DNA of 64,000 bases, taken from positions 15,360 through 79,359 of the forward strand of contig CAZTAJ010000003.1 of assembly GCA_964611575.1 (NCBI GenBank), given 5' to 3'. The notes below the pieces were generated by a model, which had not been told where the DNA came from, ran no database searches, and worked only from the letters and a program-made list of their open reading frames with translations. This DNA comes from an uncultured Verrucomicrobiota bacterium. Its GTDB lineage: Bacteria > Verrucomicrobiota > Kiritimatiellia > CAIKKV01 > CAITUY01. Below are positions 1,416-24,204 of this stretch, piece by piece; the stretch's first letter is position 1; each line of letters opens with the position of its first letter. The position numbers and the translations under genes were made by a program.

Positions 1416-1416
1416 T

Positions 1417-8491: not shown

Positions 8492-11475
8492 TACCTTCCT
8501 CCTCCTTCAATCACCAACACAAGCCGCGTTGTCGGCTGGGCGGTCGCATCGAAGTAGGTTCGCTGCCAGTTGTCCTCCCGGTCCTTGGCGTAGGCGTTGA
8601 TCTCCTCGATCTCTCGCCGCCAGCGCTTGGACGCTGCATCGCCATCGGCAATCAGCTTCTCCAGGAGTTCCACCCGCCGCTTCTTCCAGTTGCGCAAACG
8701 CCGGGTTTCCTTTCTCAGGAGGGGCGCCATCTTTGCGTCGCGGTCGTGCTTCACCTGGCGCATGTGCTCCAGACTGGCATCTACCGCAGCCGCGATGAGT
8801 GGTTCGGCCGCACCGGACGACTGGAACTCGCCTTTGTTGATGAGGCTCTTGAACTGGGCCGCATCGAGCGCCTCGGCAAGTGACCTGTGCTTGAATACAC
8901 CCCCCTTTTCAAAGGATATGGCGTGGGCGTCCACCACGAGCGGTGTGCCGGACTTGCTGGACACCTGCCCGATGAAGCAGAAGCAGAGTTCACCGGGATT
9001 CAGGCCTTTTGAGAGAATGTGTGGCGCTTGGCCGCGCTTCATGACCATGACCAGACGTTCGGCAACCCATTGCAGCACGGGATTCTGGTCAAGAATCATG
9101 TGCACTTTGGCCCAGTGGCCGGCCGTATTCCGGGCGGCTTGGATGGCTAGGTTGGCATGATCGATGTTGTCGGTGAACTGGAACTGGTCGTGCTCAGGCC
9201 ATGCCTCGGACGGGATCGCTGTGGCCCCAAAAACGACATCGTCACGCATGTTTGGCGATCCGAGTCTACGGCTCAGGTCACCGGGAGCATCGACGGTGAC
9301 CATGTGTCCATCCTCCCGGATGGGGCGGTAGTCGTGGTTCAGTTCGGCCAGGTAGCGGTATCCCTCGACAAGGAAATCCCTATCCTTGTACAAGCGAAGC
9401 CGTGACGTGCACTGCTCAGGCGCTCGCACGGTTTCATCCATGCTGGGTGCTGCAGGCCCTTCGCCCAAGAGGAATTTCAGATAATCTCCTTCACCTTCCT
9501 TAGTCGCCGACCGCAACACCTCCTCGAGAGCACTGGCCTCAGCGGACTGGGTAACGGTCGCCGCGCTTTCCAGCACGGCAGTGTTGCCAGCAAGAATCCC
9601 TTTCTCCGCGATGTACCGTTCCTCCGCCTCGGGGTCATAAAGCTTGAGGACACTCTCACCTGATCGTGTGGAACGGTTGATCTCCTCCACCTTGGTGATG
9701 AGACGGTCGAAAATGTCCCGATCTCCGGCGAGTTGTTCCTGCCGCGAGTTCACCATGAGGTAGCGCAGGCAGGGGGTGTTGCGCTGTCCGAAGCGGTCGA
9801 TACGTCCATTCCGCTGGATTAGCGTGATGATGGACCAGGGCAGATCGAAGTGGATGATGTTATGGCACTCGTGGTGAAGGTTGATTCCCTCAGAGGCAAC
9901 ATCCGTTGCCACGAGCATTCGCATGGGTGAACTGCCCGTGCCGAAAGACTCGACCGTCTTCATGAGGTGGATGTCCGGGACTCCACCGTGAATAACGCCG
10001 ATCGCCTGGTCCGGCTGTTGATCGAAGCTCTTGGAGTGCTTGATGTTGAAGTCCCTTACCAGCGCCGCTACCAAGGCTTCCTGGGTCTGGCGGTACTCGG
10101 TGAAGATCAACACTCGCGGGCTCTTCTTGCCGCCATCCCACCCGAGTTCCTTCAATTGCTTCTTCAGTAGCTTGTACCTTGTCGAGGCACCGATGGACTG
10201 TCCCTTCAAGGCGTCTTGCAGATCTCTCAGGTACGGGCTCTCGTTGCTCTGAGGATCATGCTTCTCAAGGTGCTCCTCGCGTTTGCTTGCCGTTGATGCA
10301 CAAGCCTCGGGACTCGAAAGGAAGAGCTTGTAGAGGCCATACTGGATGAGGGTGTCAATGCGTTCACCGCTGATGCCGAGGTTCTTGTTGTGCTGACGCA
10401 TTCGGGCGAAGACATCGAGGACCCTCTCTTCGGCCTCCGATGCTGACTCAGAAGTGGCGTTGAGCGGCACTACATGACGGTCCTTGAAGTTCTCGCCCGC
10501 CTCTTCACGGACATCTTCCTTGAAACGCATCAGGAAGAAGTCCTTGATGTCCTCCGGCTCGTACTCCCTGAATCTGGGGTCAGGGATGGCAGAGGGGTCC
10601 AGGAGGCTGATTAACCTGCCGAATGTCTCACGCTGGCCGTTGTGAGGAGTGGCCGTCGTGAGCAACAGACTATCCGTGCGCCTGGCCAGGAGTCTCGCAA
10701 GTCGGTGGCTGAGGTGTCGTTCCGGGACGCTGGCGCCGGCCACGTTATGGGCCTCATCAATCACCACAACATCCCATCGTGTCTCTTCCAGGAAATGCCG
10801 GTAACGGCCAACATCCTTCAGGGTGTCGATGCTGATGATGATGCGGTGGTAGATCTCAAAGGGGTTCTTATTCGCGGGAATACGCAACCTCAGACGGGCG
10901 ATGCCCAGGGAGTCCAGTCGAACAAGGGGAATTCCGAAGCGATTCCACAACTCCGACTGGAACTGAGTCAGCATGGACTTCTTGGCGAGGACGAGGATCC
11001 GGTTTGCCCGCCCTCGTCTCATGAGTTCCGTGATAATCATTCCGACTTCGATGGTCTTGCCCAGTCCCACAGCATCAGCCAGAAGGAGCCGGGGCCGAAG
11101 CTGCAGCAGCGCGCGATGGACTGCCTGGCGCTGGTACTCCATGGGCTCGAAGACCCCCATGCGATCGAGGTCCGGGGCGATTCCCGTGACAGGCATTTGA
11201 CGAAGTTGTGCCTCCAGGAACAGCCTTGCCATGCGGTAGCCGCTGGAACCGTCGGGGACGAGTGCCGTGTTGCGAGGATCCACCGGCTCGATGACATCCA
11301 GTTGTTCGAGGAATATCCGTTCCTGTCCGCGTACGAGATCGTCGGCCCCCACGCAGTGGATGGCGTTGTGCCTTCCCGACTTGTCGGCAGGAGACACGCG
11401 GGTGACCAGCCACTCCGCGTCTCGGCAAAGCACGCGCATCCCAGCGGCGAACGATGTATTCGTGCTAGACGGCAC
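8491..11475 (-). CDS. SNF2-family helicase/ATPase (DrmD-like), 994 aa
   Basis: [10 protein letters not shown] (Walker A), [24 protein letters not shown]; TAATG overlap with the methyltransferase start. Confidence 0.9.
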
Positions 11476-11476
11476 C

Positions 11477-11875
11477 CTAACAGTCCTCCGGATTGATGCA
11501 CAGATCGTCCCGTCCTGCCACGCGCAGGCAGGCGTTGATCACTTCGGCGTCATCGTCAAAGCCGATAGGCGACTTGTGGTCATCCTCTTCCTTGTTGGCG
11601 GACGAAAAGTACATAATCATGCCTTTGCACCAACAACGCGCGAACGGGGGAACAGACTCCCATTCCTTCACCACGGTCTCGATACGCCCGAGAAGCGCCT
11701 CGGCCAGTGCCAGGTCCAGGAGAGGATACCTTTTGTAGGCTGTCTGAGTCTGGACAACATGCTCACGCGCCTGTGCGAGCAGGGCTTCCACAGGCAGTGC
11801 CTCCGCCCGTGCAACGCACTCGTCCAAGTCCCTCATCTCGGTGGGCGACAGCCCCTCAGGCAGGAAACTCGACAT
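11477..11875 (-). CDS. Hypothetical 132-aa protein with a YkvA/DUF1232-like acidic motif
   Basis: Likely start MSSFLPEG (ATG at 11875, GAGG upstream). Motif YF...EEDDHKSPIGFDDDAEV resembles the G-x-x-DD motif of DUF1232. Stop lies 1 bp before the SNF2 start. Confidence 0.6.
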   Translation of the reverse strand: MSSFLPEGLSPTEMRDLDECVARAEALPVEALLAQAREHVVQTQTAYKRYPLLDLALAEALLGRIETVVKEWESVPPFARCWCKGMIMYFSSANKEEDDHKSPIGFDDDAEVINACLRVAGRDDLCINPEDC

Positions 11876-11879
11876 CGCC

Positions 11880-12071
11880 TCACCCTTCCTCGTCCCTGGC
11901 GCGGCCTGACTTGACCCAGTCGTTGACCTCCGCGACATCGAACTTCCAGAGCCGACCGACCTTGTGCGCCGGCATTTCGCGCATGCGGATCCACCGATGC
12001 ACGGTATCCTTGCTCACGCCGAGATGCGCGGCGATCTCCTCCAATGAGTACCATCGCTCAGGCCCAGACAT
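11880..12071 (-). CDS. Excisionase-like helix-turn-helix (HTH_17/MerR-like) DNA-binding protein
   Basis: 63 aa, WYSLEEIAAHLGVSKDTVHRWI...PAHKVGRLWKF; GGAGG RBS upstream. Confidence 0.85.
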   Translation of the reverse strand: MSGPERWYSLEEIAAHLGVSKDTVHRWIRMREMPAHKVGRLWKFDVAEVNDWVKSGRARDEEG

Positions 12072-12214: not shown

Positions 12215-15200
12215 TCAAGGGATTGGCCCATTCGGGGGCTCTAGCCGAATCTGCATCTGCTGGATGAAGCGTTCTACGTCGGATGGAGGAATCTGATTGA
12301 GGAGAAACGCGAGCATGTCTTCCTGCCTGGGCTGGCCGAAAACCATTCGATAGGCCACCAGCGACCGTTTGAGGTCCTCGAAATCTTGGACGTCCCGGCT
12401 CATGGGCAGCATGGGCACGTGCCGTTCAATGAATGCTCCATTCTGAACCGGGAAGACCCAGAAGGGATGAAGATCATTCGCGTCTGCCGGTCGTTTGCTG
12501 ACCGCAGCTCGGAAAACTGAGTCCCAAGGATCAGGGCTTGTGCCATCAAACGCTGCCTCGCTAAACACGCGAGCCAGATTCTTCCGGACGGCATGTCCTT
12601 TGTATCGGTGTATACGCCCCTCCCGCTGCTCAAGGTCCACGGGGTTGGACGGCAAGTTCCAATGCACAATCGCGTGGCAGTACAGGTGGAAGTCGAGCCC
12701 CTCCTGCCCTACCGAGGTGGTCGACAGGACGAACGGCCAAAAGGGGGAGTTGAACGCGCTGCGCACCTGATCCGTGCGTGCGACCTGCTCTTCATCCTCC
12801 GACCGCTCGGCACCGAAGCGAAGGGCGAATCGCACCCGCATGTTCCGTCGGTCGACGTCAATACCGCCTTCACCTTTGACTCGGATGCGATCAACTCCGA
12901 CACGCGAGGTGCGCAGGCTCACCGATCCGGCGATCTCTTCAGCGATGTCAGCGCAGGCTTCCTTGAACGGATGGTCGAACACTCCCAGCGATTCCCTCAG
13001 TACGTGCACGTACTCGTCGAGCACAGCCTGCAACCCTCCATCCAGGCAGTACTCGGTGACACGTAGCCAGTAAGGTTCGCGCCGGTTCATACCCCTGATG
13101 AGACCCAAGCTTTCGGGCAAGTTGAACAGGGACAGGAAGGCGTAGGCGATGGCACCTGCTTGGTTCCGCGCAATGGGTTCGGCGAGCGCATCGGCAGACG
13201 CAGAAAGTCGGCCGAGTGCCCGCAGGCAACAGGGGCCAAGGCCGGCAACAGCCATGAGCGCAAGTACATGAGCAAGATCAGCCGGGCGCTTCCCGAGCGA
13301 CAGGGTCTTCTGCAGGTACTTCTGAACCAGATCGCGAGCCTCTTCGACGTGATCACCCCAGCGGCTTTCCTCGGATTTGTCCTCATCCTGCGTTGAATAG
13401 CAGCGCCAGGCTTGAATGAGGTCCTTCTGGGAAAACCAGGCAACAGCAGCCTTCCGATCGCTAAGCAGGTCCAGAAGAATGGGTGCCGCCCAGTACCACC
13501 GCTCGTCTTCCGCTCCTGTCGTCGTGGCGCGGACTTTCAGTCTCGCCAGCATCGTCTCAATGTCCCGCTGAACAGAGGCGACTACGGCTCCGGCTGATGG
13601 GACACCCCCATCATGGATAAGGGTCGGCACAACTTTCAGTGGGTCCCCGCACCGGGCCAGCGTAATGCTGGGGTAGATCATCCCGAGCACCGCCATACCC
13701 GTAAGGCGCTCGTCCGATCTGGCGAAACGTAGCAACGGTCTACGTGCTTTGCGCGCGGCCTCATCATTACTCGCATCAGGCTCAAAAAGCAGAATGCTTT
13801 GCCTTTCGGCTTCGTAGCTGACCATAGCCGAAATCACCTTCGGGACGACCTTCCAGCAGGAGAAGACCAGACGCTTAGTGATACCGGCAAGGGCTGGATC
13901 TGCGTATGGACCGGCGAGTTGGTAGTATGGCAAAGATGGAGGCATCCAAAGCAGTTTCCACGCCCCTTTGTCAACGGTATCGGCCATCAGGGACCGGAGC
14001 CTGGCGTTTCCAGAATCGCATTGGCGGTACTTCGATATTTCACTCCAGCGGAGGAGCAAGTGCTTCCGGTCCGCCAGAAGCGTAGCGAGCCGGTCTGTCT
14101 GCCCGGAAGCCACATCACGTAGGAAGTCCCTCTTGAGGACATAATCATCCATGAAGTTCAGCAGGTAAGGTGCAGACTTCCAGTACTCCACGGTCGTACC
14201 GTGCGACAGTTCGTCGGCAACCTGTTCATGCCTGATGAATGCATGCAGGTCTTGCGGCGTGAGCGGGACAGGGTCTGCGCCCACCTGTTTCAGCATCCCG
14301 TCACGGTCTGTGGTTGCGGCCAGTCTCTCCGTTCGAACCATCACGCGCCTGAGTCGGGTCTCCATCTCCTGCTTTACGGCAAGCAGTCCGCCATCCGGTT
14401 CCTGGCCGAGCGTAAGCATGCGTCCTCTGTAGTCGTCGAGGACATCCTTGAAAGCATCGGTCTCGGCCTTGTTGTCCTGGAGAAATCCGAGTGTCGTCAG
14501 AAAATCGGCATAGTGGTCGTCCTGTTCCGTTTCATGGCTCAGGGTGAGCATCTTGTAGGGGGTGGCCGAGAGCAAAAGAACATGGGCACGCGAATGGCCG
14601 TCAGAGTACTGGAAGAGGTCCTGCGCCAGGATAGCGGCCTCGTTGTCTCCTGTTAGAAGATGCCGAAACCGCTGGAACTCATCCATGATAATCAGATCTG
14701 GCTCCAATGCCTCCAGACATGATGATGCGAGAAGAGCCCGAAGCTCACCAATCACGCAGTTACGCTCCTGCCCGTCCTCCCGCGAGATGCGTGCGTCGTG
14801 ACGGCAGAACGCCTCGCACAGTCGCTCAAATCGAGATCGGATGTCCGGCTTGCCCTCGCGCTTCTCAGTCGCAATTCGATGCTCCAGGTCTTCCAGGAAC
14901 CCGGCTTCCACAGAGGCGTCAACCTTGGTCTCTGAGGAAAACATGCGCCGGCAGCGGTGGTGGAAGTTATTGGCGTACATCCCACCGCGGAGCACGTTTG
15001 CCGGGGCTTTACCTCGAAGATTCCACGGCCCACGCAGGAGGCGGTACAGAAGCGCGCGTTCATCGGATATCCCCATGCTGGACTTCAGATCGAAAGATGT
15101 ACCCGGAGTGAAGGAAACGAAGTTCAACTTGTTCGCCTTGAGATCATGAATGCAGGTGGGAAGCATTGTGATCCGCGACGGCAGGGAGAAGTCTCTGTCC

Positions 15201-15490
15201 TTGGTGATGTTCAAGCGAGCGATGTTCTGTCGAGCGATGTCGCCGTTGGAACAGATATAGACAATGTCAATTCGTGGCACTTTGTCCCAGAGGTGGTCAA
15301 TGGCACGGGCAACGACTCCACGCGCGACCAGTGTCTTCCCCAGGCCGACTTCATCCGCGATGAGAAATCGCCGGGTAGGATCGCTGGGGTTGTACATTCG
15401 GTCGAATACGTAGTCCACAGTGCGACGCTGGAAATCCTTCAGGCCGGCAAGCACCTTGTTCACGTCGGGTTTCTCGCGTCGGCGGGTCAT
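12215..15490 (-). CDS. SF2/SNF2-like helicase of the DUF6361-PLD-helicase triplet (Azaca ZacC-like)
   Basis: IADEVGLGKT, IMDEFQ, SATP, GQEGLD, QREGRIHR; start MTRRREK inferred from an ATGA overlap with the PLD stop. Confidence 0.85.
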   Translation of the reverse strand: MTRRREKPDVNKVLAGLKDFQRRTVDYVFDRMYNPSDPTRRFLIADEVGLGKTLVARGVVARAIDHLWDKVPRIDIVYICSNGDIARQNIARLNITKDRDFSLPSRITMLPTCIHDLKANKLNFVSFTPGTSFDLKSSMGISDERALLYRLLRGPWNLRGKAPANVLRGGMYANNFHHRCRRMFSSETKVDASVEAGFLEDLEHRIATEKREGKPDIRSRFERLCEAFCRHDARISREDGQERNCVIGELRALLASSCLEALEPDLIIMDEFQRFRHLLTGDNEAAILAQDLFQYSDGHSRAHVLLLSATPYKMLTLSHETEQDDHYADFLTTLGFLQDNKAETDAFKDVLDDYRGRMLTLGQEPDGGLLAVKQEMETRLRRVMVRTERLAATTDRDGMLKQVGADPVPLTPQDLHAFIRHEQVADELSHGTTVEYWKSAPYLLNFMDDYVLKRDFLRDVASGQTDRLATLLADRKHLLLRWSEISKYRQCDSGNARLRSLMADTVDKGAWKLLWMPPSLPYYQLAGPYADPALAGITKRLVFSCWKVVPKVISAMVSYEAERQSILLFEPDASNDEAARKARRPLLRFARSDERLTGMAVLGMIYPSITLARCGDPLKVVPTLIHDGGVPSAGAVVASVQRDIETMLARLKVRATTTGAEDERWYWAAPILLDLLSDRKAAVAWFSQKDLIQAWRCYSTQDEDKSEESRWGDHVEEARDLVQKYLQKTLSLGKRPADLAHVLALMAVAGLGPCCLRALGRLSASADALAEPIARNQAGAIAYAFLSLFNLPESLGLIRGMNRREPYWLRVTEYCLDGGLQAVLDEYVHVLRESLGVFDHPFKEACADIAEEIAGSVSLRTSRVGVDRIRVKGEGGIDVDRRNMRVRFALRFGAERSEDEEQVARTDQVRSAFNSPFWPFVLSTTSVGQEGLDFHLYCHAIVHWNLPSNPVDLEQREGRIHRYKGHAVRKNLARVFSEAAFDGTSPDPWDSVFRAAVSKRPADANDLHPFWVFPVQNGAFIERHVPMLPMSRDVQDFEDLKRSLVAYRMVFGQPRQEDMLAFLLNQIPPSDVERFIQQMQIRLEPPNGPIP

Positions 15491-17346
15491 TGCTGAAGCT
15501 CCTGTCTCACCTGCCAGATGGGCTCCCATGCTCTGATGAACCCCGGAGGAAGCAGATTCATGCCGTCAGGAGTCTTCCCGAGATCGTCAACCAACCTGGC
15601 CACCCGGTCAAGTTTCTCGGGATGGCGATGAAGCGTTCGGAGTAGTGGCTCAAGGAGTGAGAGGTCTTGATGCAGCCAGGAAGTGCCGTCGGCATCGTCC
15701 TTGCCCACGTTCTTCCGGAAGTCAGCCAGTTTGGAGAACGCATCCGAGTCCTCGTCTGCCAGCAGGAATAGCAGAAAACGGATGACCTCACCGCGATTTC
15801 TAAGGAGTGTGCGCACTAGTCGTTCCCTGCGATCTTCTGGCATTCCCTCAACCGGTACGTTCACAACGAACTGCTTGATCGTCGTGTGTTTGCCCACCTT
15901 CGCCTTCACCTCAAAGGCAAAGAAAGTGGTGATGGCTTCGAAAGAGATGGCCTCAAAGGTCGCGGAGAAGCCGGATTGGCGGTCAGGGGGGATCCCTGCA
16001 CTGTCTGGCAGCGTGACAGGCCAGGCCTTCACTTCCACTCCGTCGGGAAAGACGGGTGTTCCTCTCGTGGTCAGCCGGAGGGAGAACCTATCGGCAATGG
16101 TCGAGGGACCCACTTTCCCTGTCATCCGTGCGGTTGCAATGGCTGTGCGCGCTGACTCGGCTAGGTCCTCAGCTTCCTGCTTTGCCTTGTCGATTGGCGG
16201 CGGTTCCGCCGGTGCGCTGTACTCTCGCAATAAGTCACTGAAACGTGTTTCCCCTTTGACCTGGGCCATGATGGCGTCCACACCACAGAAACTCTTCTTC
16301 CCAGTCAATTCCACCATGAACTCGACGTTCCGACGAAAGGCGGCCGTAGTGGCATTTGCCGAGCCAGTCCAGATGCGGGCATTCCATCCGGCATCCGCGA
16401 CGAACAGCTTCGCGTGAAGCCCCTGGAGGGGGGCATCGCGAAGGTCTTCCGCCGCTTCTGCGTCGTCAGCGTCCTCAATGTCGGCGTCCGGGTCCAGACA
16501 GTAGACCTTATGGAAGCACTGCAGGTCCTCTTTGCTCATGGCGTTCAGCACATCGACACGGGAAACGAGCATGTCCCCGTCTTCCGCAGCCGCCAATTCA
16601 GGCAGCACACCTGCATCCAGAAACGGCGAGATAATCAGGAGGCGATCCAAGCGACCGTCAGGCTTCCATCGTGACTCGCCCTCAATGCCGATAGCATGGA
16701 AACGAAGGTCCGAGAATCCCTCCGGAGGCGCGAAGTTGACCTTCCGCAACTCACGTTCCATGACGGCGACGTGCTGCCGAAGAGAAGACGGCGCCTCCCT
16801 GAGCATCATCCCTGGTAGCGAGGCCACAAAGTTGGCCAGGGGATGATTGGCGGCGTAAGCGTTCTTCCGCTCCATCACTTCTCCTTCGAGTGACAGCAGC
16901 GTGTCCCAAGAGCGATCGAAGGTGAGGTTGCGGCTGAGGCACAGGACGCGGTACATCACCGGCACGGACGAATCAGAAGGGAGAAAGCGGAGCACCCAGA
17001 CCTTGGGATGGAAGATGCCATGCTTCCGGGGCGCCGTGACTTCGTGGACCATGTTTTCGAGGTTGTTGAGGAGGATGCGATTCCCCTTCGGGACGGAGAT
17101 CCCGCCAGCCTGACAGAAGATGTGAACCCTATCCGCATATCGTCGTATGGCTTCCAGGATCGCCAGAGGGTCACCGGTAGGCTTCCCCGCGTCATCTTCC
17201 CAGTCGAAAAGCGCAAACGCGAGCGGGACCGTCAAGAGTGTCATAAGGTCCAACGAATAGGTTGTCCCGATGGCGCGTTCAAGGTCATAGCCGACCGGTG
17301 GACGAAGGGCTTCAAGCAGGTGACGACGTTCCAAGGGCCTAAGCAT
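15487..17346 (-). CDS. Phospholipase D-family nuclease-like protein
   Basis: Full HKD motif LHAKLFVAD...GSAN and a degenerate one FHPKVWVLR...SRNLT. Confidence 0.8.
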   Translation of the reverse strand: MLRPLERRHLLEALRPPVGYDLERAIGTTYSLDLMTLLTVPLAFALFDWEDDAGKPTGDPLAILEAIRRYADRVHIFCQAGGISVPKGNRILLNNLENMVHEVTAPRKHGIFHPKVWVLRFLPSDSSVPVMYRVLCLSRNLTFDRSWDTLLSLEGEVMERKNAYAANHPLANFVASLPGMMLREAPSSLRQHVAVMERELRKVNFAPPEGFSDLRFHAIGIEGESRWKPDGRLDRLLIISPFLDAGVLPELAAAEDGDMLVSRVDVLNAMSKEDLQCFHKVYCLDPDADIEDADDAEAAEDLRDAPLQGLHAKLFVADAGWNARIWTGSANATTAAFRRNVEFMVELTGKKSFCGVDAIMAQVKGETRFSDLLREYSAPAEPPPIDKAKQEAEDLAESARTAIATARMTGKVGPSTIADRFSLRLTTRGTPVFPDGVEVKAWPVTLPDSAGIPPDRQSGFSATFEAISFEAITTFFAFEVKAKVGKHTTIKQFVVNVPVEGMPEDRRERLVRTLLRNRGEVIRFLLFLLADEDSDAFSKLADFRKNVGKDDADGTSWLHQDLSLLEPLLRTLHRHPEKLDRVARLVDDLGKTPDGMNLLPPGFIRAWEPIWQVRQELQQ

Positions 17347-18550
17347 GTTTCAGGCCCTCCATGATGTCGGTAACGATCTGGTGGGTCACTCCCCATCGGA
17401 AATCCAGGCGCCCGGCGCCGGCTGCGCCAGTCCAGAGTTCGAGAGCCCTCGCATTTTCCAGCCGGGCCAAGGATTTCTTGAGAGCCCGCTCTCGTTCCTT
17501 GATGAGTTGCCGGGCCCCAGCGTGTGCTGCCAGCTTAGCGGGGGAAGGCGCAGTCAGAACCAGAATGACCCAGTCTTTCGTGAACCTAACGGTTCTGGAG
17601 GGTACTCTCGCCCCTGCGGTATCCAGAATCTGCCAGAATCGCTCCTGATTCCAACCGCGGAGAGCCGCGCCTCGTGCGTTGACCAAATCAGCCCACTGTC
17701 GAAACTGTTCGTCGTAGTGATGAATGAGTTCATCATTGCGGCCAAGCTGCGAGAGCATCAGATTATAGAGGAGGGCTGCACCATGGATTGTCTCGGAGAA
17801 ACACCGCGCGTGGTCCACTTGCTCCTTATTGAGCGAAGGAAAATCCCCATAGCCAGCGTCGGCCCAGCAGAATGGGCTGTCGCTCGGAGAGGTCCTGCGG
17901 GAGATCAGATGTGCTAGGAGCGACCTCGGGGCATGAGTCAATACCCGTTCCTGCAAGTATTTGGCCTCCTTGCGGTCCAGTAGGAAAGAAGCATCATCAG
18001 GAAATCCTTCGGGCACTGGGGGCAGGCCGGAGTGCCAATTCAGGCCGGCACTTCCAGACACGACATCCCCGTCCTCGCTTCGCAGCATCCGACCCCGTGT
18101 CGTGCGCCAGCGGTCGACCGAACGGTGATACTGATCCTGTGATCCGTTGAAGAGACGTATGCCCCAGGCCCCTAAGCCCTGCCAGTAGATGTTGCTCGGC
18201 AGCCGCCGTAACGTCTCTCTGGCGACGCGACCGATGACATCCAGGGTTTCCCCTCCCTTCTCAAGACCGTTGACCAGCGCGATCTCGCGTGTCCTCGCCC
18301 ATTCTGCGATGCGAGCCGACTCGATTCTTCCTTCCTCTGCTGCCCGGTAGATCCATGGGATGAACAGGAAATACCTGGCGCGCGTCTGGACGGTGCCGGT
18401 GCCCGGGAAGAGCAGATCAGCGAAGCCGTCGCGGATCGTGCCGATGCCCAACTCGTCCCGAGTGCCCTGCTCACCAAATGCCTCAATGACATCAACCATC
18501 TTCCGGCGTTCGTGCTCCGAGTAGTCTAGCCATGTGAAGGTTGATCTCAT
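17339..18550 (-). CDS. DUF6361-like protein, first gene of the triplet
   Basis: Likely start MRSTFTWLD; GTRDELGIG..RD.FADLLFPG..T.QTRARY.LF, LPSNIYW; 8-bp overlap with the PLD gene. Confidence 0.7.
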   Translation of the reverse strand: MRSTFTWLDYSEHERRKMVDVIEAFGEQGTRDELGIGTIRDGFADLLFPGTGTVQTRARYFLFIPWIYRAAEEGRIESARIAEWARTREIALVNGLEKGGETLDVIGRVARETLRRLPSNIYWQGLGAWGIRLFNGSQDQYHRSVDRWRTTRGRMLRSEDGDVVSGSAGLNWHSGLPPVPEGFPDDASFLLDRKEAKYLQERVLTHAPRSLLAHLISRRTSPSDSPFCWADAGYGDFPSLNKEQVDHARCFSETIHGAALLYNLMLSQLGRNDELIHHYDEQFRQWADLVNARGAALRGWNQERFWQILDTAGARVPSRTVRFTKDWVILVLTAPSPAKLAAHAGARQLIKERERALKKSLARLENARALELWTGAAGAGRLDFRWGVTHQIVTDIMEGLKHA

Positions 18551-18701
18551 ATTTTCTCGAATGCTAGCGCGCCTAACGCGCGGATATCTGAGGAAAGCTA
18601 CCACGGCAATCTAGCCGGTTCAAGGTTACGCACACCTCACACACGCACGACCACGCACCTGCTTGGGGATCTTGGCGAAACCGCGCCACACAAGCGTCCA
18701 T

Positions 18702-18731
18702 TTGACATAGCGCAGGGTGGCCCCCTATGCT
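18702..18731 (+). promoter_or_regulatory. Possible sigma70 promoter for the 208-aa ORF
   Basis: TTGACA-N18-TATGCT immediately upstream of the ORF. Confidence 0.45.
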
Positions 18732-18742
18732 GCCCGCAAGTC

Positions 18743-19369
18743 ATGTGGGGATTGATAATGCGTCGCTACCCAAAGAAGCTGTCTGTTCTGGTCACGAGGC
18801 TGTCGAATCAGGAGCGGAACGCCATTGACCGGACTCTGGCCTTTATGACGTACAACCCCTCGATTGGGCGTGTCCTGGAGAAAGGGGGCGTAGGGAAGTT
18901 CCAGGAATTTGCGGTAAAGCGCCTTCTCCCCCCGTTATCGAAATGCCAGACCCGTGGAGCCTTTGACAAACATGTGCTCGGATCAATCACGTCCCTGCGG
19001 AGGATCCTCAAGACTCACGGCGGCCAGCCGGCCTCATTCGGCCAAGCGCAAAAGCCGGTTACCGTATTCCTCAAGGTCTACTGTGACTGGGCGAATCGCC
19101 CCTCACCGGCCATTGCCGAGGTGGTGCGACCATGGCTTCACGTGCCACTGGACAGCATTCTGATGAAATGGCTCCGCCAGAACCTCCGCGCGGACTTCGA
19201 TGCCAGAATCGCACACATCTATATAGAACACGGGATCAGGCCATCGAAGCTGGATCTGCTACATATGAACCGGGCAATGTACCTCGCCTGGCAGAAGTGG
19301 TTCCGCGAAATCCACCCTAAACGCCCCGTTCTACTGGATGTCATCTGGGCCGTGCAGAGGGGTGCCTGA
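18743..19369 (+). CDS. Hypothetical protein, possible helical (HhH/AGOG-like) DNA glycosylase fold
   Basis: Motifs GQAQKPVTVFLK, HVPLDSILM and C-terminal LLDVIW; promoter upstream. The fold call is inference. Confidence 0.45.
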   Translation: MWGLIMRRYPKKLSVLVTRLSNQERNAIDRTLAFMTYNPSIGRVLEKGGVGKFQEFAVKRLLPPLSKCQTRGAFDKHVLGSITSLRRILKTHGGQPASFGQAQKPVTVFLKVYCDWANRPSPAIAEVVRPWLHVPLDSILMKWLRQNLRADFDARIAHIYIEHGIRPSKLDLLHMNRAMYLAWQKWFREIHPKRPVLLDVIWAVQRGA

Positions 19370-19385
19370 ACTGCTTTCGGCCAAA

Positions 19386-19760
19386 TCATCGCCGAACGTC
19401 CTGAAGTCTTCGCTCAAGCACCGCCTCAAGGCGCCGCACGAGGTTACTGCGCCACTGAGGGACCATGTCGGGTGGATAGAGCGCAAGCACGTCGAACTGG
19501 TTTTCCTGATAGACGCGCAGCTTGTGCCGAGCACTGGCGATGTAACCGGGATCTCCGGTAATGCCGAAGTATTCGATGAGCGGGCCGCATTGAAGCGAGA
19601 AATCTGCGTACCATATTTTCGTCTTCCCGGCATCCACAACAGCCGTCGGTTTTTCATAGATGAAGGGAATGCGCCGGCTGTCGAGAAAGTCGCCGATCTG
19701 GCGTTCCATGCGGGATTTGTACTCAGGCCTTCGGCCTGTTTGGTAATTGCAATCGTCCAT
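19386..19760 (-). CDS. Small stand-alone PD-(D/E)xK / Vsr-like nuclease domain protein
   Basis: E..I..FL....I.F.YEK...YADF...IEYFG...Y....K...Y pattern. Confidence 0.55.
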   Translation of the reverse strand: MDDCNYQTGRRPEYKSRMERQIGDFLDSRRIPFIYEKPTAVVDAGKTKIWYADFSLQCGPLIEYFGITGDPGYIASARHKLRVYQENQFDVLALYPPDMVPQWRSNLVRRLEAVLERRLQDVRR

Positions 19761-19850
19761 CCCATTGGGAGGGAAAGGTAGTATTTGAAGGTTTCGGTAA
19801 GCCGAATACCTGGCCGGTAGCTTTATAATCGAGTGGTGCCTGCATAAAGG

Positions 19851-20327
19851 ATGGCGCTCAACAACGGCCGGATCAAGTGCGGCAAGGGTTCATGCCGACG
19901 GACCAAAGATCCCGACTGGGCGGCGGCCGAAAAAGAAGTCGGCAGGATGCTGGCGGAGCTTCTTCTGGATGGCTGCCTTGTCCTGAATGATGTGCCGTTC
20001 CCGTATGGCAATCTGGATCATCTTGTTATCAGGCCGGATGGCACCGTATTCCTCATTGAAACGAAGTCCCATCGGGGCAAGGTCACCTGGGACGGTAAAC
20101 GGCTCTTGATTAACAGGCGCCCGTTCTCCTCAAATCCCATTTGCCAGATTAACCGAAGTATCCGGTGGGTGCGACAGATGGCCAAGCGGCTTTTCGGGCA
20201 CAACCCCTGGATCGTGGCGATCCTCGCATTCCCGAATGCTCAGGTGGTGATCCGGCGACCCGTGAAACGGATCAACGTGCTCAACTCCAAGGATATTCTC
20301 GCGTTCATCAGAGCGTACCGACGTTGA
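19851..20327 (+). CDS. NERD-domain nuclease
   Basis: E..V...L...LNDV...NLDHLVI...VFLIETK..G; no extra domains. Confidence 0.8.
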   Translation: MALNNGRIKCGKGSCRRTKDPDWAAAEKEVGRMLAELLLDGCLVLNDVPFPYGNLDHLVIRPDGTVFLIETKSHRGKVTWDGKRLLINRRPFSSNPICQINRSIRWVRQMAKRLFGHNPWIVAILAFPNAQVVIRRPVKRINVLNSKDILAFIRAYRR

Positions 20328-20491
20328 TCTCTCCCACCTTCACATCTCACTTGATTCCGCGCTCCCATCCTGTCCCAAATCTTCCCTGCCTGTTCCAGCG
20401 AAGCCCATGGACCCGCCGCACCGCACGCACGCATACTGACGAACAGAAACCGTACGCACGGTTTGGAGCTTTGTTCAGCAGGAGGACGGCG

Positions 20492-21433
20492 ATGACACCT
20501 GGCGTTACATTCAGACAACTTTTTGAGGTTCTCGAGAAGATCCCTGGATTGCAGCGTACGGACTGGGAGCACAATCAATCCGGAGCGGACAGGGGGCTTG
20601 AGAGCGTACTTATTCAGAGAACCACGCGCGAAGTGGCGACGTATGCGCTGGTTCAACTCCGATTTGTGACGATGCCGGAACTGCTGGCCAATGACAATCC
20701 CATTCGCGACGAAACACAGACGGCCGAACTACTCTCTTGGGCAAGGAGTCAAGGGCCCGGCGGGTCCATGATGATGAAGGTCGTAACGAACACAACGGCT
20801 CCAAGTGATCGGCGTCGGATCGGCGCGCTGGCAGTGCTGAGGTACTACCACAACAGGGAAGATGACAATCCGGTGGTCAAACGCCCATGGACAGACGAAG
20901 GCATGAACAAGCTTCCGACTCTCGACGTCAGTAGCCTTTTGGTCTATCCCACGTCTGGCGACTTCTGGGGAAAGAAATTCGAAACCATCCGACGTTTAGC
21001 GGACACCGTCCTCAGGATGAATCTGCCGAAGCTGTCCAGTGATCAGGTGCTATGGGACCTGAGAAGCGTCAAAGGGGTAGGCCCACAAACGGCCAGCATG
21101 GTCGCTCTATTCTGGCTCGCGAGGCCGATACCAATCATCGACAGCTATCTGACCAGATTACTCGTGAGTCACGGACTCGTGCCTGGCACGTTGGATGGCA
21201 GTCTCGCTCAGGATGACCTGAGGCGCCACCTCATCCTTTGGGCACAGGAAATGGCTGTGAGTAGACCTGACTGGCCCGCGCACCGATTACTTAGCGCGCT
21301 GTATCTCTGGGCGTGCGAAGTCGGCCGCTTGCACTGTACCTGCGCCAAGTTACCGTCATCGAACTGTCCCGTTCGACGATTGCTGAATCACATCAGCGGG
21401 CGGGTTGCTTCTATCCAAGACATCAGGCAATGA
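20492..21433 (+). CDS. HhH-GPD (endonuclease III-related) DNA glycosylase with an insertion, 313 aa
   Basis: GGAGG RBS before ATG 20492; VLIQRT, HhH LRSVKGVGPQTA, catalytic-type IIDSYLTR, and a C-terminal Cys cluster WAC..HCTC..NCP. Confidence 0.75.
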   Translation: MTPGVTFRQLFEVLEKIPGLQRTDWEHNQSGADRGLESVLIQRTTREVATYALVQLRFVTMPELLANDNPIRDETQTAELLSWARSQGPGGSMMMKVVTNTTAPSDRRRIGALAVLRYYHNREDDNPVVKRPWTDEGMNKLPTLDVSSLLVYPTSGDFWGKKFETIRRLADTVLRMNLPKLSSDQVLWDLRSVKGVGPQTASMVALFWLARPIPIIDSYLTRLLVSHGLVPGTLDGSLAQDDLRRHLILWAQEMAVSRPDWPAHRLLSALYLWACEVGRLHCTCAKLPSSNCPVRRLLNHISGRVASIQDIRQ

Positions 21434-22639
21434 GGACACCCACTTCCTCTCGCTATCTGCGTCAATGTGCGTGTAGATCGCATTCACCTCCACGCTGGAA
21501 TGGCCCATGATGGAGCGGGCAATGGCCTCGGGGCAACCTTGCTGCTTCAAGATGGAGACGAAATTGTAGCGCAGGGAATGAAAGTCGATCTCGGACTTAT
21601 GAAGTTTTGCCGGATGCTCGGACATGTATTCCACGCCTGTCCTTTCTGCTTGCCGCTTCGCCCTCCTTCTCTTCACGTAGCGCCGGTTTATGTCGTATCG
21701 GTTGTCCTTCCTTAAGCTGGCTCTGACAAGCGCCTTACGAAACGCCTCGCTTGCCCTGTGATGACTCTTGTAGAAAGTCGGAAAAACCGGACCACCAAGA
21801 CTCTTGACCCGGGCATCAATATGAGGTGAGAGCGTACTGTGGGTGTCAGGTAACTCAGTCGCTCTCAATTCGTAGGCAGACTGTAGTTCATCCAACAGAC
21901 GCGGATGGACGGCAATCTCCATGTGCTTGCCACGCCGCTTGCTCATTCGCCACCGAATGACTCGGTTCTGGAAGTCAACATTTGACCACGTGAGGCACAC
22001 AATGTCGCTTAACCTCAGCGCCCCGGCATAGAGGCCAATGGTGGCAAGCAGTCTGACATGGCCAGTAAGCGACACGAACAAATCACGAAGCTCTGTCTCA
22101 GTGAACGGACGACGTACGGATGGAGATTCGGGAAGGATGGGAATCCCAACTGTGACATCCTGAAGAGCGAAGCCATCACGCACCGCAGATCGGAAGACGC
22201 TTCGGAGCCGGCGCAGATAGCCGTTGTGCGTGCGGGCGTTGAAACGGTCAGCGACGTGATCGAGAAAGCACCGAAGCATGTTCCGGTCAAGTTGGGATAT
22301 GGTCGTAGCATGAGGAAAGTTATGCCTGAGCCAATCAACAAACCTCTTGTCACGGGAGCAATACAACTCTCTCGTCCTTTCCGCCACGTGTTTGCGACGG
22401 CTCTCAAAAATGACTTCGACAGCAATTGGACGTATGGTTTCAGACTCGATCGCTCGCGCCAGTTTCTGCGATACGGTGCCGGTCTCGGCTTGCTGTACAA
22501 GAACAAGTTCAACTTCGCGAAGTTGAAGCTGCGCCTTCCCCTCGTCGTCAGTACCTGTTGATTTACGGACTTGTTTCCCGCCGATGCTATAGCGGATCCA
22601 CCAGTTATCAGAACCGGGTTGTTTGAACAGTGTAGCCAT
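21356..22639 (-). CDS. Tyrosine recombinase / phage-type integrase
   Basis: Catalytic set ALRLSD (R), FHSLR (HxxR), MGH (H), IYTH (Y); N-terminal arm-binding-like WWIRY region. Confidence 0.92.
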   Translation of the reverse strand: MATLFKQPGSDNWWIRYSIGGKQVRKSTGTDDEGKAQLQLREVELVLVQQAETGTVSQKLARAIESETIRPIAVEVIFESRRKHVAERTRELYCSRDKRFVDWLRHNFPHATTISQLDRNMLRCFLDHVADRFNARTHNGYLRRLRSVFRSAVRDGFALQDVTVGIPILPESPSVRRPFTETELRDLFVSLTGHVRLLATIGLYAGALRLSDIVCLTWSNVDFQNRVIRWRMSKRRGKHMEIAVHPRLLDELQSAYELRATELPDTHSTLSPHIDARVKSLGGPVFPTFYKSHHRASEAFRKALVRASLRKDNRYDINRRYVKRRRAKRQAERTGVEYMSEHPAKLHKSEIDFHSLRYNFVSILKQQGCPEAIARSIMGHSSVEVNAIYTHIDADSERKWVSSLPDVLDRSNPPADVIQQSSNGTVR

Positions 22640-22796
22640 GTCGTGCGCCCTTCTGGTGTCTCCTGGCCATCTCTGAACCTGATGGTCCGTTTGCTGAACA
22701 ATTTAGCATAGTTCAGCATAGCAAGGAAAGCCAAAACGGCAGACAAATGCACTATTTTGCTACATTTGGCCACTTATTTGTTGATTAAGCGTGGAT

Positions 22797-22843
22797 ACAT
22801 CCAGCGTGTAAAGCTGGCGCTCTGCCAATTGAGCTAACCGCCC
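22797..22843 (-). pseudogene. 5' fragment of tRNA-Val(TAC); T arm and acceptor 3' strand absent (probable att site)
   Basis: Minus strand GGGCGGT TA GCTC AATTGGCA GAGC G CCAGC TTTACAC GCTGG ATGT has intact D and anticodon arms with TAC. It is followed by ATCCACGCTTAATC with no GTTC T-loop and no ACCGCCC. Confidence 0.85.
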
Positions 22844-22910
22844 GTCGGAAGGATCAGGGCAGGCATGATGAGGGATGGGTGGCGGGCATTCAAGGCAGAA
22901 TCGGCCGCCA

Positions 22911-24125
22911 TCAGACCGATGGCCGCCGCAGTCCCCCGCGCAAACCCCATACGCCCAGGAACAGAGCCGCCACCAGGGCCGCACCCGCGCAAACCAGCAA
23001 CGGCGCCATCCCGCTGCCCGTCTTGTCCCATAACCAGCCCGTGAACAGGCTGGCCACAATCAGCAGCACCCCCTCAACCATCCCCCAGAATCCAAACGCC
23101 GTGCCCCGCTGCCCTTCCGGAACGAGATCCGCAATCACCGCCTTCCCCGCCCCCTCAGTCAACCCGTAGAAGCAGCCGTAGGCCACAAACAACGCCCAGA
23201 CACTCCACGCCGGCCGGCTGAAGGCAAAGCCCACATAGACCAGCGCATACACCCCCCACCCCGCCACCAGCACCGGCAGCCGGCCAATGCGGTCGGACAA
23301 CTTGCCGCCCCAGACCGAGGTGCCGGTCTTGATCAGGTGCAACAACGCCCATAGCAACGGCAACAACGCGATGCGCACCCCCATGTCCTGCGCGCGCAGC
23401 AACAGGAACGCATCGCTCGAATTGGCGATGGCAAACAGGGACGCCGCCGCCACATAGAGAAAGTATTCGCGCGGCAACTGGCCCACACCCGCAAACGGGT
23501 TGCGCACGGGCTTGGGCGCCACCACACGATCCTCCCGGTCGCGGACAAAGAAGACGATCGTGAGCACCGACAGCACCCCCGGAATGAAGGCCCACAGAAT
23601 CGCCTTGCGCATGGCCGGCAGGTCGCTGCCCAGCCAGTACAGCAGGCCAAACCCGATCAACCCGCCCACCATCGCGCCGGCATGATCCATCCCGCGTTGA
23701 AATCCGAACGCATGCCCGCGCATCGACTTGTCCGAGAAGTCCGCCACCAAGGCATCCCGCGGCGCCGTGCGGATGCCTTTCCCGATCCGGTCAAGCACCC
23801 GCACGACCAGCACGAACACGGACCCCCGCGCGAAGGCTACGAGGGGCTTGAACAGGGTGGATAACGTGTAACCGGCCAGGACCAGCCACTTGCGGTTGCG
23901 AACCCGGTCGGCCAGCGAGCCGGCGAAAAGTTTGATGATCGCCGGTAATCCCTCGGCGATCCCCTCAATGGCCCCGATCATCGCCCGCGACGCGCCAAGC
24001 TGCATGAGGAAGGCGGGCATGATCGGATACAGGATCTCGCTGCCCATATCCGTGAAGAAACTGACAAAGCCGGTGGCTTTCACCACACGGTGCAGACGGG
24101 GGCGGGCGGTAGTGTCGGTGGTCAT
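22911..24125 (-). CDS. MFS transporter
   Basis: About 12 hydrophobic segments; GSLADRVRNRK and GKLSDRIGR MFS motif A repeats. Confidence 0.92.
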   Translation of the reverse strand: MTTDTTARPRLHRVVKATGFVSFFTDMGSEILYPIMPAFLMQLGASRAMIGAIEGIAEGLPAIIKLFAGSLADRVRNRKWLVLAGYTLSTLFKPLVAFARGSVFVLVVRVLDRIGKGIRTAPRDALVADFSDKSMRGHAFGFQRGMDHAGAMVGGLIGFGLLYWLGSDLPAMRKAILWAFIPGVLSVLTIVFFVRDREDRVVAPKPVRNPFAGVGQLPREYFLYVAAASLFAIANSSDAFLLLRAQDMGVRIALLPLLWALLHLIKTGTSVWGGKLSDRIGRLPVLVAGWGVYALVYVGFAFSRPAWSVWALFVAYGCFYGLTEGAGKAVIADLVPEGQRGTAFGFWGMVEGVLLIVASLFTGWLWDKTGSGMAPLLVCAGAALVAALFLGVWGLRGGLRRPSV

Positions 24126-24204
24126 GTTTGCTGAGTGTTCGGTGTTCAGTGTTCGGGGGAAATTGTGCCCTCACCCCATGTCCCGGCCCGGGCCCGGCCG
24201 GTTC

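What the first reader, a model, noticed from the sequence alone, without database searches (positions are those of the whole stretch)
18702..21433. Candidate new base-excision defence cassette: two HhH-fold glycosylase-like genes plus two minimal nucleases
Four genes between the Azaca-like operon and the integrase match no system I can name. They encode a 208-aa protein (GQAQK..FLK / HVPLD / LDVIW, reminiscent of helical AGOG-like glycosylases), a 124-aa PD-(D/E)xK domain, a stand-alone NERD nuclease and an endonuclease III-related HhH-GPD protein. DNA glycosylases that excise modified phage bases are an established defence theme (e.g. Brig1). Inference: these could recognise hypermodified phage DNA and pass abasic sites to nucleases, complementing the methylation-based module. 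Mixed orientation (+,-,+,+) argues against one operon.
Basis: inference. Interest (0 to 1): 0.75.

Follow-up and report, generated by a model that had tools for sequence, protein, structure and literature searches.

The report
Mosaic of nuclease and glycosylase genes
The four genes are not one defence cassette but three separately inherited pieces, one of which (a divergent pair of small nucleases, often followed by a rare iron-sulfur glycosylase-like gene) recurs beside the integrase of several genomic islands and has not been described.

Summary
All four ORFs are real: A 18743-19369(+), B 19386-19760(-), C 19851-20327(+), D 20492-21433(+).

- **C** is a NERD nuclease with an intact D...ExK triad.
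- **B** is a miniature T7-endonuclease-I-like PD-(D/E)xK protein.
- **D** is a genuine but very divergent HhH-GPD, endonuclease III/MutY-like protein. It keeps the catalytic Asp, has Gln at the lyase-Lys position and carries a four-Cys cluster.
- **A** is not HhH-like. A confident all-helical model matches nothing in PDB or BFVD.

The four genes are a mosaic of three blocks.

- A travels with the Azaca operon (same block in L001). It has lost its N-terminal DUF7669 domain.
- B|C is a conserved divergent pair, seen in six independent islands; a seventh has C without B.
- D sits at the end of the C operon in four of those seven islands. It also occurs alone elsewhere.

In a same-genus genome, C, D and the integrase are kept at the same site while all cargo, including B, differs.

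Function is untested. The pair could be island-backbone DNA processing or a split, END-like modified-DNA defence. The evidence does not decide between these. The four-gene base-excision cassette reading is only partly supported.

The parts
12215..18604 (-). Azaca operon: zacC 12215-15529, zacB 15487-17346, zacA 17339-18604. This is context; it forms one inherited block with gene A.
   Evidence: PADLOC ZacC E 0, ZacB 1.5e-182, ZacA 1.2e-130. blastn block 12312-18552 is 75% identical to L001.
18702..18731 (+). Promoter-like site of gene A (TTGACA, 18 nt, TATGCT)
   Evidence: Consensus scan, 10 of 12 matches. The same words precede the A homologue in L001.
18743..19369 (+). Gene A. 208 aa from the first ATG; 203 aa (P0001) from Met6. 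An all-helical protein of an unnamed family. This copy lacks the N-terminal DUF7669 domain that its closest relatives carry.
   Evidence: 191 homologue clusters. 913 representatives at E<=1e-3. Model pLDDT 94.4. No fold neighbour. P0002 and P0004 are 335/333 aa with PF24706.
19386..19760 (-). Gene B, 124 aa, a T7-endonuclease-I-like mini PD-(D/E)xK protein. E19, D53 and E63 are kept; Phe stands at the Lys position.
   Evidence: PADLOC PDC-S69/S68 C-terminal domains at E about 1e-4.
19761..19850 (.). Divergent B|C control region. It holds a conserved motif (CTGGCCGGTAGCTTTATAAT) about 30 nt upstream of the C start.
   Evidence: Compared by eye across WIN, L007, L067 and L010. Homology to G001 begins at 19797.
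19851..20327 (+). Gene C, 158 aa, a stand-alone NERD nuclease with invariant D56 and E70-T-K72
   Evidence: Pfam PF08378 E 2.2e-17. Alignment A5.
20492..21433 (+). Gene D, 313 aa, a divergent HhH-GPD (endonuclease III/MutY-like) protein. It has GVGPQTA, invariant D217, a four-Cys cluster (C275, C282, C284, C292) and an extra helical segment of about 80 aa.
21356..22639 (-). Tyrosine integrase of the island. Its 3' end overlaps the 3' end of D by 78 nt.
   Evidence: Pfam PF00589 E 3.8e-14. The same overlap is seen in G001.
22767..22843 (-). Degenerate tRNA-like remnant (5' part reads as tRNA-Val TAC), the likely attachment-site end of the island
   Evidence: Rfam tRNA 27.7 bits, below the gathering score of 29. 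ARAGORN finds no tRNA. Sequence read.

Best explanation
The stretch is a junction of three separately inherited modules inside a genomic island of at least 38 kb that carries defence systems.

**Module 1: gene A.** A belongs to the Azaca-carrying block. It is an N-terminally deleted member of a widespread, uncharacterised all-helical family. It is not an HhH glycosylase.

**Module 2: genes B and C.** B is a T7-endonuclease-I-like mini nuclease and C is a NERD nuclease. They form a tight, divergently transcribed pair.
- In each of the five B|C islands where an integrase is seen, the pair lies within a few genes of it.
- The integrases involved are only distantly related to one another.
- The C operon always reads toward the integrase.

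**Module 3: gene D.** D is an optional last gene of the C operon. It is a rare Fe-S-type HhH-GPD protein. Because it keeps the catalytic Asp but has Gln instead of the lyase Lys, I predict it to be a monofunctional base-flipping DNA glycosylase.

**Most likely mode of action (inferred, not shown).** B|C(+D) is a DNA-processing module carried as part of the island's conserved integrase-proximal core.
- D would find and excise a non-canonical base.
- The two PD-(D/E)xK nucleases would cut branched or damaged DNA.

The evidence does not settle whether this serves the element's own excision, replication and repair or excludes foreign modified DNA. I lean slightly to the backbone reading.
For: **Block structure**
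- blastn of L001 matches the window at 12312-18552 plus 18810-19362 only.
- L007 matches 19382-20239 and 20530-21390.
- L067 matches 19384-20278.
- G001/L010 matches 19797-24126 (all).

**Synteny**
- B(-)|C(+) occurs in WIN, L007, L009, L067/G010, L068 and L087.
- C-D occurs in WIN, G001, L007 and L009.
- Integrases lie beside the module, yet share only 22-35% identity or are not detectable as related.
- G000 and G001 share C (77%), D (90%), the integrase (93%) and the chromosomal site, but have entirely different cargo.

**Neighbours in the C operon or near B are mobile-element genes**
- SSB, HU, ArdC-N, RadC, DUF87 and an AEP primase.

**Protein identities**
- C.
- B.
- D.
- A.
Against: - No experiment bears on function.
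- Only seven independent islands were seen, all from metagenomes or MAGs.
- D also occurs without B or C: near Bil/UvrD, MoxR-VWA and ArdC/CobT-VWA genes. B also occurs without C in ICE-like regions. The three genes are therefore not obligately linked.
- The domains involved also occur in defence proteins. NERD is found in PglW and MAD6. The B-like domain is found in PADLOC candidates PDC-S68/S69. DUF488 of the L009 operon matches PDC-M45C. The islands carry defence cargo. A defence role is therefore about as plausible as a backbone role.
- The invariant Asp of D could be structural rather than catalytic.
Confidence: 0.55

Rival explanations
1. B|C-D is a stand-alone anti-phage system that targets hypermodified DNA. 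On this reading it is a split, multi-gene counterpart of END nucleases or of Brig1. D recognises modified phage bases and perhaps excises them. The NERD and T7-endo-I-like nucleases then destroy the marked or abasic DNA.
For: - EndoIII-like domains are proven sensors of hypermodified phage DNA when fused to PLD, NucS-like PD-DExK or McrB modules (PMC12191111).
- A glycosylase alone can give immunity (Brig1, PMC11078745).
- D neighbours include Bil, a Schlafen/AlbA_2 ATPase and MoxR-VWA genes.
- The B-like domain occurs in PADLOC candidates PDC-S68/S69, and NERD occurs in PglW and MAD6.
- The adjacent Azaca cleaves glucosyl-hmC T4 DNA (10.1101/2025.07.10.664194), so the island already has a modified-DNA theme.
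Against: - D has no PADLOC hit.
- C, D and the integrase are retained while cargo is exchanged.
- B|C occurs without D in three islands, and D occurs without B|C in at least four contexts.
- In END nucleases the EndoIII domain is inactivated and fused. Here it is separate and keeps its Asp.
- Neither nuclease belongs to a known AP-endonuclease family.
Confidence: 0.3
2. The genes are unrelated neighbours: leftover single genes in a recombination-prone island end, with no joint function. Each acts alone or is decaying.
For: - Three different block boundaries fall within 2 kb.
- A is a deletion derivative.
- B is replaced by an unrelated 234-aa gene in G001.
- D and B each occur alone elsewhere.
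Against: - The B|C divergent arrangement, with the same spacing and a conserved upstream motif, recurs in six independent islands at 57-82% protein identity.
- All catalytic-type residues are intact and invariant across the families. That argues for purifying selection and for a functional pair.
Confidence: 0.12
3. One reading: all four genes, including A as a second HhH glycosylase, form one base-excision defence cassette.
For: Physical adjacency in this window. A's homologues are often near restriction or defence genes: Azaca in L001, DpnI/NmeDI-type genes in L076, an Eco57I-type methylase in L084.
Against: - A has no HhH fold by Foldseek.
- A is absent from every other B, C or D locus examined.
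- Homology to L001 ends at 19362 and homology to the B|C loci starts at 19382.
Confidence: 0.03

Closest known systems
END nucleases (nuclease fused to an inactivated endonuclease III domain; Yee et al. 2025, PMC12191111)
   Same: An EndoIII/Ogg-type HhH domain sits together with a nuclease (PLD or PD-DExK) in island contexts. The proposed logic is the same: a base-flipping domain reads non-canonical bases and a nuclease cuts.
   Different: - Here the HhH-GPD protein is a separate gene, not a fusion.
- It keeps the catalytic Asp and a four-Cys cluster, so it may be an active glycosylase.
- The partner nucleases are NERD and T7-endo-I-like.
- No sequence relationship to END proteins was tested.
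Endonuclease III (Nth) / MutY / MagIII, the HhH-GPD DNA glycosylases
   Same: - Fold: Foldseek probability 1.0, TM up to 0.64 on MagIII.
- HhH hairpin GVGxQTA.
- Pro-rich loop and Asp 20 residues after the hairpin.
- C-terminal Cys cluster.
- The host's own Nth aligns over this core.
   Different: - Below Pfam HhH-GPD detection.
- Gln replaces the lyase Lys.
- Cys spacing is C-x6-C-x-C-x7-C rather than C-x6-C-x2-C-x5-C.
- About 80 extra residues lie before the HhH.
- It is island-borne and rare: 24 clusters in 5.8 billion proteins, and 2 of 101 related genomes.
Brig1 (single-gene anti-T-even DNA glycosylase; Hossain et al. 2024, PMC11078745)
   Same: The idea that a mobile, monofunctional glycosylase could disable modified phage DNA by creating abasic sites.
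   Different: - Brig1 belongs to the uracil-DNA-glycosylase superfamily.
- It works alone.
- It needs no nuclease partner and none of the host AP endonucleases.
Phage T7 endonuclease I (PF05367; PDB 2pfj, 1m0d)
   Same: B shares the core E...PD...E pattern and the order of secondary elements. The family is detected by the Pfam model in 24 of 33 members.
   Different: - The catalytic Lys (ExK) is Phe in the whole B family.
- B is chromosomal or island-borne, and no close relative turned up in the phage or IMG/VR collections (searches cover plasmids and IMG/VR; the phage collection was searched with A only).
- Junction-resolving activity is untested.
Azaca (ZacABC; Millman et al. 2022; 10.1101/2025.07.10.664194)
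   Same: Gene A sits divergently next to zacA here and in L001, and it moved with that operon as one block.
   Different: - Azaca is defined and reconstituted as three proteins.
- A is not in PADLOC.
- A is absent from the 400 other genomes of the phylum sampled.
- A is mostly found without Azaca.

Membership tests
HhH-GPD DNA glycosylase superfamily (gene D) | Helix-hairpin-helix followed by a Gly/Pro-rich loop and an invariant Asp about 20 residues later | tested here: met
   GVGPQTASMVALFWLARPIPIID. G197 and D217 are invariant in 23 of 23 homologues. The motif aligns to GVGRKTA...VDVH of the host Nth.
HhH-GPD DNA glycosylase superfamily (gene D) | Two-domain all-helical fold matching solved glycosylases | tested here: met
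   Model pLDDT 89. The top 50 Foldseek PDB hits are all MutY, MagIII, EndoIII, MIG, AGOG or ROS1, at probability 0.96-1.0.
HhH-GPD DNA glycosylase superfamily (gene D) | Reaches the curated Pfam PF00730 score | tested here: not met
   Only PF00633 HHH at 14.6 bits, below its cut-off of 24. The PF00730 search of the own genome finds only the host Nth.
Endonuclease III (bifunctional Nth) | Lyase Lys in the HhH (GxGxKTA) | tested here: not met
   Gln199 in 22 of 23 homologues, Glu in one.
Endonuclease III / MutY Fe-S subgroup | C-x6-C-x2-C-x5-C [4Fe-4S] loop | tested here: inconclusive
   Exactly four Cys in the protein: C275-x6-C282-x1-C284-x7-C292, conserved in 21-23 of 23 homologues. The spacing differs, and metal binding cannot be tested here.
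HhH / AGOG-like glycosylase (gene A) | HhH-type glycosylase fold | tested here: not met
   The pLDDT 94 model has a best PDB hit of E 1.2. OGG1 appears only at E 4-6 with TM 0.24-0.29. There are no Pfam or PDB sequence hits.
NERD (PF08378) nuclease (gene C) | Pfam model over cut-off and PD-(D/E)xK triad | tested here: met
   64 bits against a cut-off of 22.1. D56 and E70-T-K72 are invariant in 6 of 6 homologues.
T7 endonuclease I family (gene B) | Pfam PF05367 match | tested here: inconclusive
   The window protein itself gives no hit. 24 of 33 homologues match at E<=1, best 1.2e-5. The family profile against PDB 2pfj gives E 0.006.
T7 endonuclease I family (gene B) | Catalytic E20, D55, E65, K67 | tested here: not met
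   E19, D53 and E63 are invariant, but the Lys position is Phe65 in at least 90% of the family.
END nucleases | Nuclease and inactivated EndoIII domain in one polypeptide | tested here: not met
   C, B and D are separate genes, and D keeps the Asp. Definition taken from PMC12191111.
Brig1-type defence glycosylase | Uracil-DNA-glycosylase superfamily fold | tested here: not met
   All structural neighbours of D are HhH-GPD, and none is a UDG.
Single co-inherited cassette A-B-C-D | The four genes recur together in other genomes | tested here: not met
   No locus other than the window holds A together with B, C or D. The blocks have different boundaries.
Known or candidate defence systems (PADLOC 2.0) | Match to a system protein model | tested here: not met
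   A and D give no hits. B gives only domain-level hits at E about 1e-4 to PDC-S68/S69. C gives a weak hit to the PglW N-terminus.

The most novel reading that the evidence does not exclude
B|C, with the optional 172-aa gene and D, is an undescribed module that a family of integrative islands carries next to the integrase. It would work as a split, catalytically active relative of END nucleases.
- An Fe-S HhH-GPD glycosylase would excise hypermodified bases from incoming phage DNA.
- The NERD and T7-endo-I-like nucleases would convert the lesions or stalled forks into breaks.

Separately, gene A would represent a new-fold enzyme family of defence islands.
Probability: 0.2. Interest if true: 0.7.

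Novelty: new variant of a known kind. Interest (0 to 1): 0.42.

Why it matters
- **A possible new defence layout.** If B|C-D is a defence unit, it would extend the EndoIII-as-sensor principle of END nucleases to a multi-gene form that may be catalytically active. It would also add an HhH-GPD enzyme to the glycosylase-based immunity so far known only from the UDG superfamily.
- **A marker for islands.** If it is island backbone, it defines a recognisable core: a T7-endo-I-like gene divergent from a NERD gene, reading toward the integrase. That core could be used to find defence-carrying islands in Verrucomicrobiota-type and other uncultured bacteria.
- **Two families worth biochemistry.** D is a rare Fe-S HhH-GPD clade of 24 clusters. 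A has about 900 representative clusters, a confident model and no fold neighbour.
- **Annotation.** The result corrects a tempting over-reading of four adjacent DNA-enzyme genes as one system.

Tried and rejected
- **A as a 5-hmdU DNA kinase relative.** One homologue (P0092) gave PF18748 at E 0.033. None of the 45 family members reproduced it. Rejected.
- **A as AGOG/OGG-like.** OGG1 appears only among insignificant Foldseek hits. Rejected.
- **Fusion partners of A-like domains.** P0300 and P0340 were searched against PDB sequences to get a functional hint. Nothing was found.
- **Phage and plasmid collections.** There are no real homologues of A or D, and none of B in plasmids. IMG/VR gave only distant B-like hits and one A homologue. 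A prophage-backbone reading was therefore dropped.
- **Search for a universal partner of D.** All-vs-all clustering of neighbours across 14 loci found only NERD, and only in the clade at 64% identity or above.
- **Literature.** Searches for DUF7669, for NERD plus endonuclease III, and for DUF488 gave nothing useful.
- **Wider genome search.** A second phylum-wide search centred on L009's genome turned out to sample the same phylum and added no loci.
- **Promoter/terminator scan.** Apart from the promoter of A, it gave no more sites than shuffled sequence.
Full report
**1. What is there**

The window's first ~22.8 kb have 54-62% G+C, against about 66% for the host DNA to the right. The low-GC tract continues to the start of the contig, so the island is at least 38 kb. 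It ends at a tyrosine integrase (21356-22639, minus strand). Beyond the integrase lies a degenerate tRNA-like remnant at 22767-22843 (Rfam 27.7 bits, below threshold; none by ARAGORN; sequence).

Left of the finding lies a complete Azaca operon: ZacC, ZacB and ZacA, with PADLOC E values of 0, 1.5e-182 and 1.2e-130.

The four ORFs of the finding exist:

| Gene | Coordinates | Strand | Length |
|---|---|---|---|
| A | 18743-19369 | + | 208 aa (the database form starts at Met6) |
| B | 19386-19760 | - | 124 aa |
| C | 19851-20327 | + | 158 aa |
| D | 20492-21433 | + | 313 aa |

D most probably starts at ATG 20492, behind an AGGAGG.

Spacings are as follows:
- A and B converge with 16 nt between their stops.
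- B and C diverge across 90 nt.
- C and D are 164 nt apart.
- D and the integrase converge and overlap by 78 nt.

**2. The proteins one by one**

*C* is a NERD domain protein (PF08378, E 2.2e-17). D56 and E70-T-K72 are invariant in six homologues.

*B* belongs to a well-conserved family of 110-160-aa proteins, with 77 clusters at 45-87% identity.
- 24 of 33 members hit the T7 endonuclease I Pfam model. The family profile hits T7 endo I structures at E 0.006.
- E19, D53 and E63 align with catalytic E20, D55 and E65. The Lys of ExK is Phe throughout the family.
- The same domain forms the C-terminus of PADLOC candidates PDC-S68/S69.
- It also occurs inside ~300-aa proteins in 44 of 401 genomes of the phylum.

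*D* is rare: 24 clusters among 5.8 billion proteins.
- Full-length copies occur in only 2 of 101 related genomes.
- Its family profile hits MagIII, 3-methyladenine glycosylases and EndoIII at E 2e-6 to 1e-4.
- The AlphaFold model (pLDDT 89) retrieves only HhH-GPD glycosylases in its top 50 Foldseek hits.
- Against the host's own canonical Nth (L021:1384-2046), hhalign puts GVGPQTA on GVGRKTA and IIDSY on CVDVH.
- Q199 is present in 22 of 23 homologues and D217 in 23 of 23. The protein's only four cysteines (C275-x6-C282-x-C284-x7-C292) are conserved in 21-23 of 23.
- The predicted chemistry is therefore a monofunctional glycosylase with an Fe-S-type cluster of unusual spacing. This is an inference.

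*A* has 191 close clusters and 913 representative clusters at E<=1e-3.
- Many polar residues are invariant: R38, Q96, Q98, K99, K106, H128, D132, Q179 and D194.
- The model is confident (pLDDT 94.4, pTM 0.89) and all-helical.
- It has no significant neighbour in PDB (best E 1.2) or BFVD.
- It has no Pfam, NCBIfam, PHROG, PADLOC or PDB sequence match.
- The AGOG/HhH idea is therefore not supported.
- The closest relatives (P0002, P0004) are 333-335 aa with an N-terminal DUF7669. The window copy keeps the first 12 codons and the promoter but lacks about 130 codons.

**3. Are the four genes one unit? No.**

blastn of related loci against the window gives sharply different blocks:

| Related locus | Matching window coordinates | Content | Identity |
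|---|---|---|---|
| L001 | 12312-18552 and 18810-19362 | Azaca, then the A core | 75-77% |
| L007 | 19382-20239 and 20530-21390 | B\|C, then D | 73%, 69% |
| L067 | 19384-20278 | B\|C | 69% |
| G001 (L010), same genus | 19797-24126 | C promoter, C, D, integrase, tRNA remnant, host MFS gene | 86% |

None of the other B, C or D loci holds A. Other A homologues sit in other settings:
- an ICE-like region (L075);
- an operon beside DpnI/NmeDI-type genes (L076);
- near an Eco57I-type methylase (L084);
- among ordinary genes (L002).

A is found in only 1 of 401 genomes of the phylum, namely this one.

**4. The recurrent module**

Seven independent islands show the same layout:

| Island | Layout |
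|---|---|
| WIN | B\|C-D-Int |
| G001 | 234aa\|C-D-Int |
| L007 | B\|C-172aa-D-(3 genes)-Int |
| L067 (G010) | B\|C-172aa-Int |
| L087 | B\|C-HU-172aa-68-82-Int |
| L009 | B\|C-123-(rSAM-like+DUF488)-391-D |
| L068 | B\|C-42-SSB-168-112-263-62-Int |

- The integrases share only 22-35% identity or are not detectably related. B and C are 51-82% identical across the same islands.
- A short motif upstream of C is conserved.
- Two earlier notes of this scan (e1-1481370, e1-1925748) report the same NERD|small-nuclease pair beside defence genes in two further genomes. I did not re-examine those genomes.
- D also occurs without B|C. It lies next to a Bil system and a UvrD/M78 gene (L005), after a MoxR-VWA pair (P0125), and beside ArdC-N/M78 and CobT-VWA genes (L011/L012).
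- B occurs without C in ICE-like regions with ArdC, SSB, RadC and DUF87.

**5. How it probably works**

Shown:
- the fold and family assignments;
- the intact catalytic-type residues;
- the synteny and the block boundaries.

Inferred:
- D flips out and excises a non-canonical base, leaving an abasic site and making no strand cut, because it lacks the lyase Lys.
- C and B cleave DNA. By analogy with T7 endo I, B may prefer branched DNA.

Two readings remain.

*(a) Island backbone (about 0.4).* The module sits at the integrase end. It is retained when cargo is swapped between G000 and G001. Its neighbours are SSB, HU, ArdC and RadC. One member is a junction-resolvase relative.

*(b) Defence against modified DNA (about 0.3).* EndoIII-like domains fused to nucleases are proven sensors of hypermodified phage DNA (END nucleases, PMC12191111). 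A glycosylase alone can protect (Brig1, PMC11078745). NERD and the B-like domain occur in defence proteins. The islands carry defence cargo, including Azaca, which cuts glucosyl-hmC T4 DNA (10.1101/2025.07.10.664194).

I cannot separate these two readings with sequence data.

**6. Comparison with known systems, and novelty**

- D is a member of the HhH-GPD superfamily by fold and motif, but lies below Pfam detection. It is not a canonical Nth (no Lys, different Cys spacing, about 80 extra residues).
- The gene set is not an END nuclease, because the genes are separate and the Asp is retained.
- It is not Brig1-like in family, because Brig1 belongs to the UDG superfamily.
- I found no paper describing a NERD / T7-endo-I-like / EndoIII-like module.
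- I rate it a new variant of a known kind (nuclease plus HhH base-reader).
- A is an uncharacterised family in its own right.

**7. Verdict**

- Observation: partly confirmed.
- Interpretation: partly supported.
- The four-gene base-excision cassette is not a unit, and one of its two supposed glycosylases is not one.
- A real, recurrent and undescribed B|C(+D) module does exist.
- Interest is moderate.

Noticed in passing
window 22767-22843 (-): A degenerate tRNA-like sequence next to the integrase. The acceptor, D and anticodon arms read as tRNA-Val (TAC). The 3' part diverges. It scores 27.7 bits against Rfam's 29 and is not called by ARAGORN. It is probably the island's att end.
   Followed up: partly
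window 18743-18800 vs L001:10001-10420: Gene A lost about 130 codons (the DUF7669 domain) by an in-frame internal deletion. It kept the promoter and the first 12 codons.
   Followed up: partly
window 21356-21433: D and the integrase gene converge and overlap by 78 nt. The same overlap is present in the same-genus genome G001.
   Followed up: no
L007:1260-1778, L067:10517-11035, L087:6427-6945: A conserved 172-aa protein (66-74% identity) with no Pfam or PADLOC match follows NERD in three islands. It takes the place D has in the window, or precedes D.
   Followed up: partly
L009:2485-3852 and L068:3211-4002: A radical-SAM/DUF5131-like protein lies inside the NERD-led operon of two islands (59% identity). 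In L009 it is fused to DUF488, which matches PADLOC candidate PDC-M45C at 5e-25.
   Followed up: no
G000:C99:10358-10630 and G000:C45:2465-2725: The own genome holds two more copies of the B-like nuclease domain inside ~310-340-aa open frames. Such ~300-aa proteins occur in 44 of 401 genomes of the phylum.
   Followed up: no
window 19800-19850; L007, L067, L010 equivalents: A conserved motif (C/T)TG(G/A)CCG(G/A)T(A/G)G(C/G)TTTATAA lies about 30 nt upstream of the NERD start codon. Its spacing does not fit a sigma-70 promoter.
   Followed up: no
L080 (G000:C3:1-15400) and window 1-12071: The low-GC island runs to the contig start, so it is at least 38 kb. It holds further very large genes (2194, 694, 662 and 653 aa) that I did not annotate.
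   Followed up: no
L005:1-6949: A D homologue (50% identity) lies at the edge of an island with a Bil (ubiquitin-like) system and an M78-UvrD-PDDEXK protein.
   Followed up: no
L011 and L012 (same Planctomycetales MAG): There are two paralogous copies of a block of about 10 kb. Each carries a D homologue next to a CobT-VWA gene, an ArdC-N/M78 gene, an ADP-ribosylglycohydrolase and a DSP-phosphatase.
   Followed up: no
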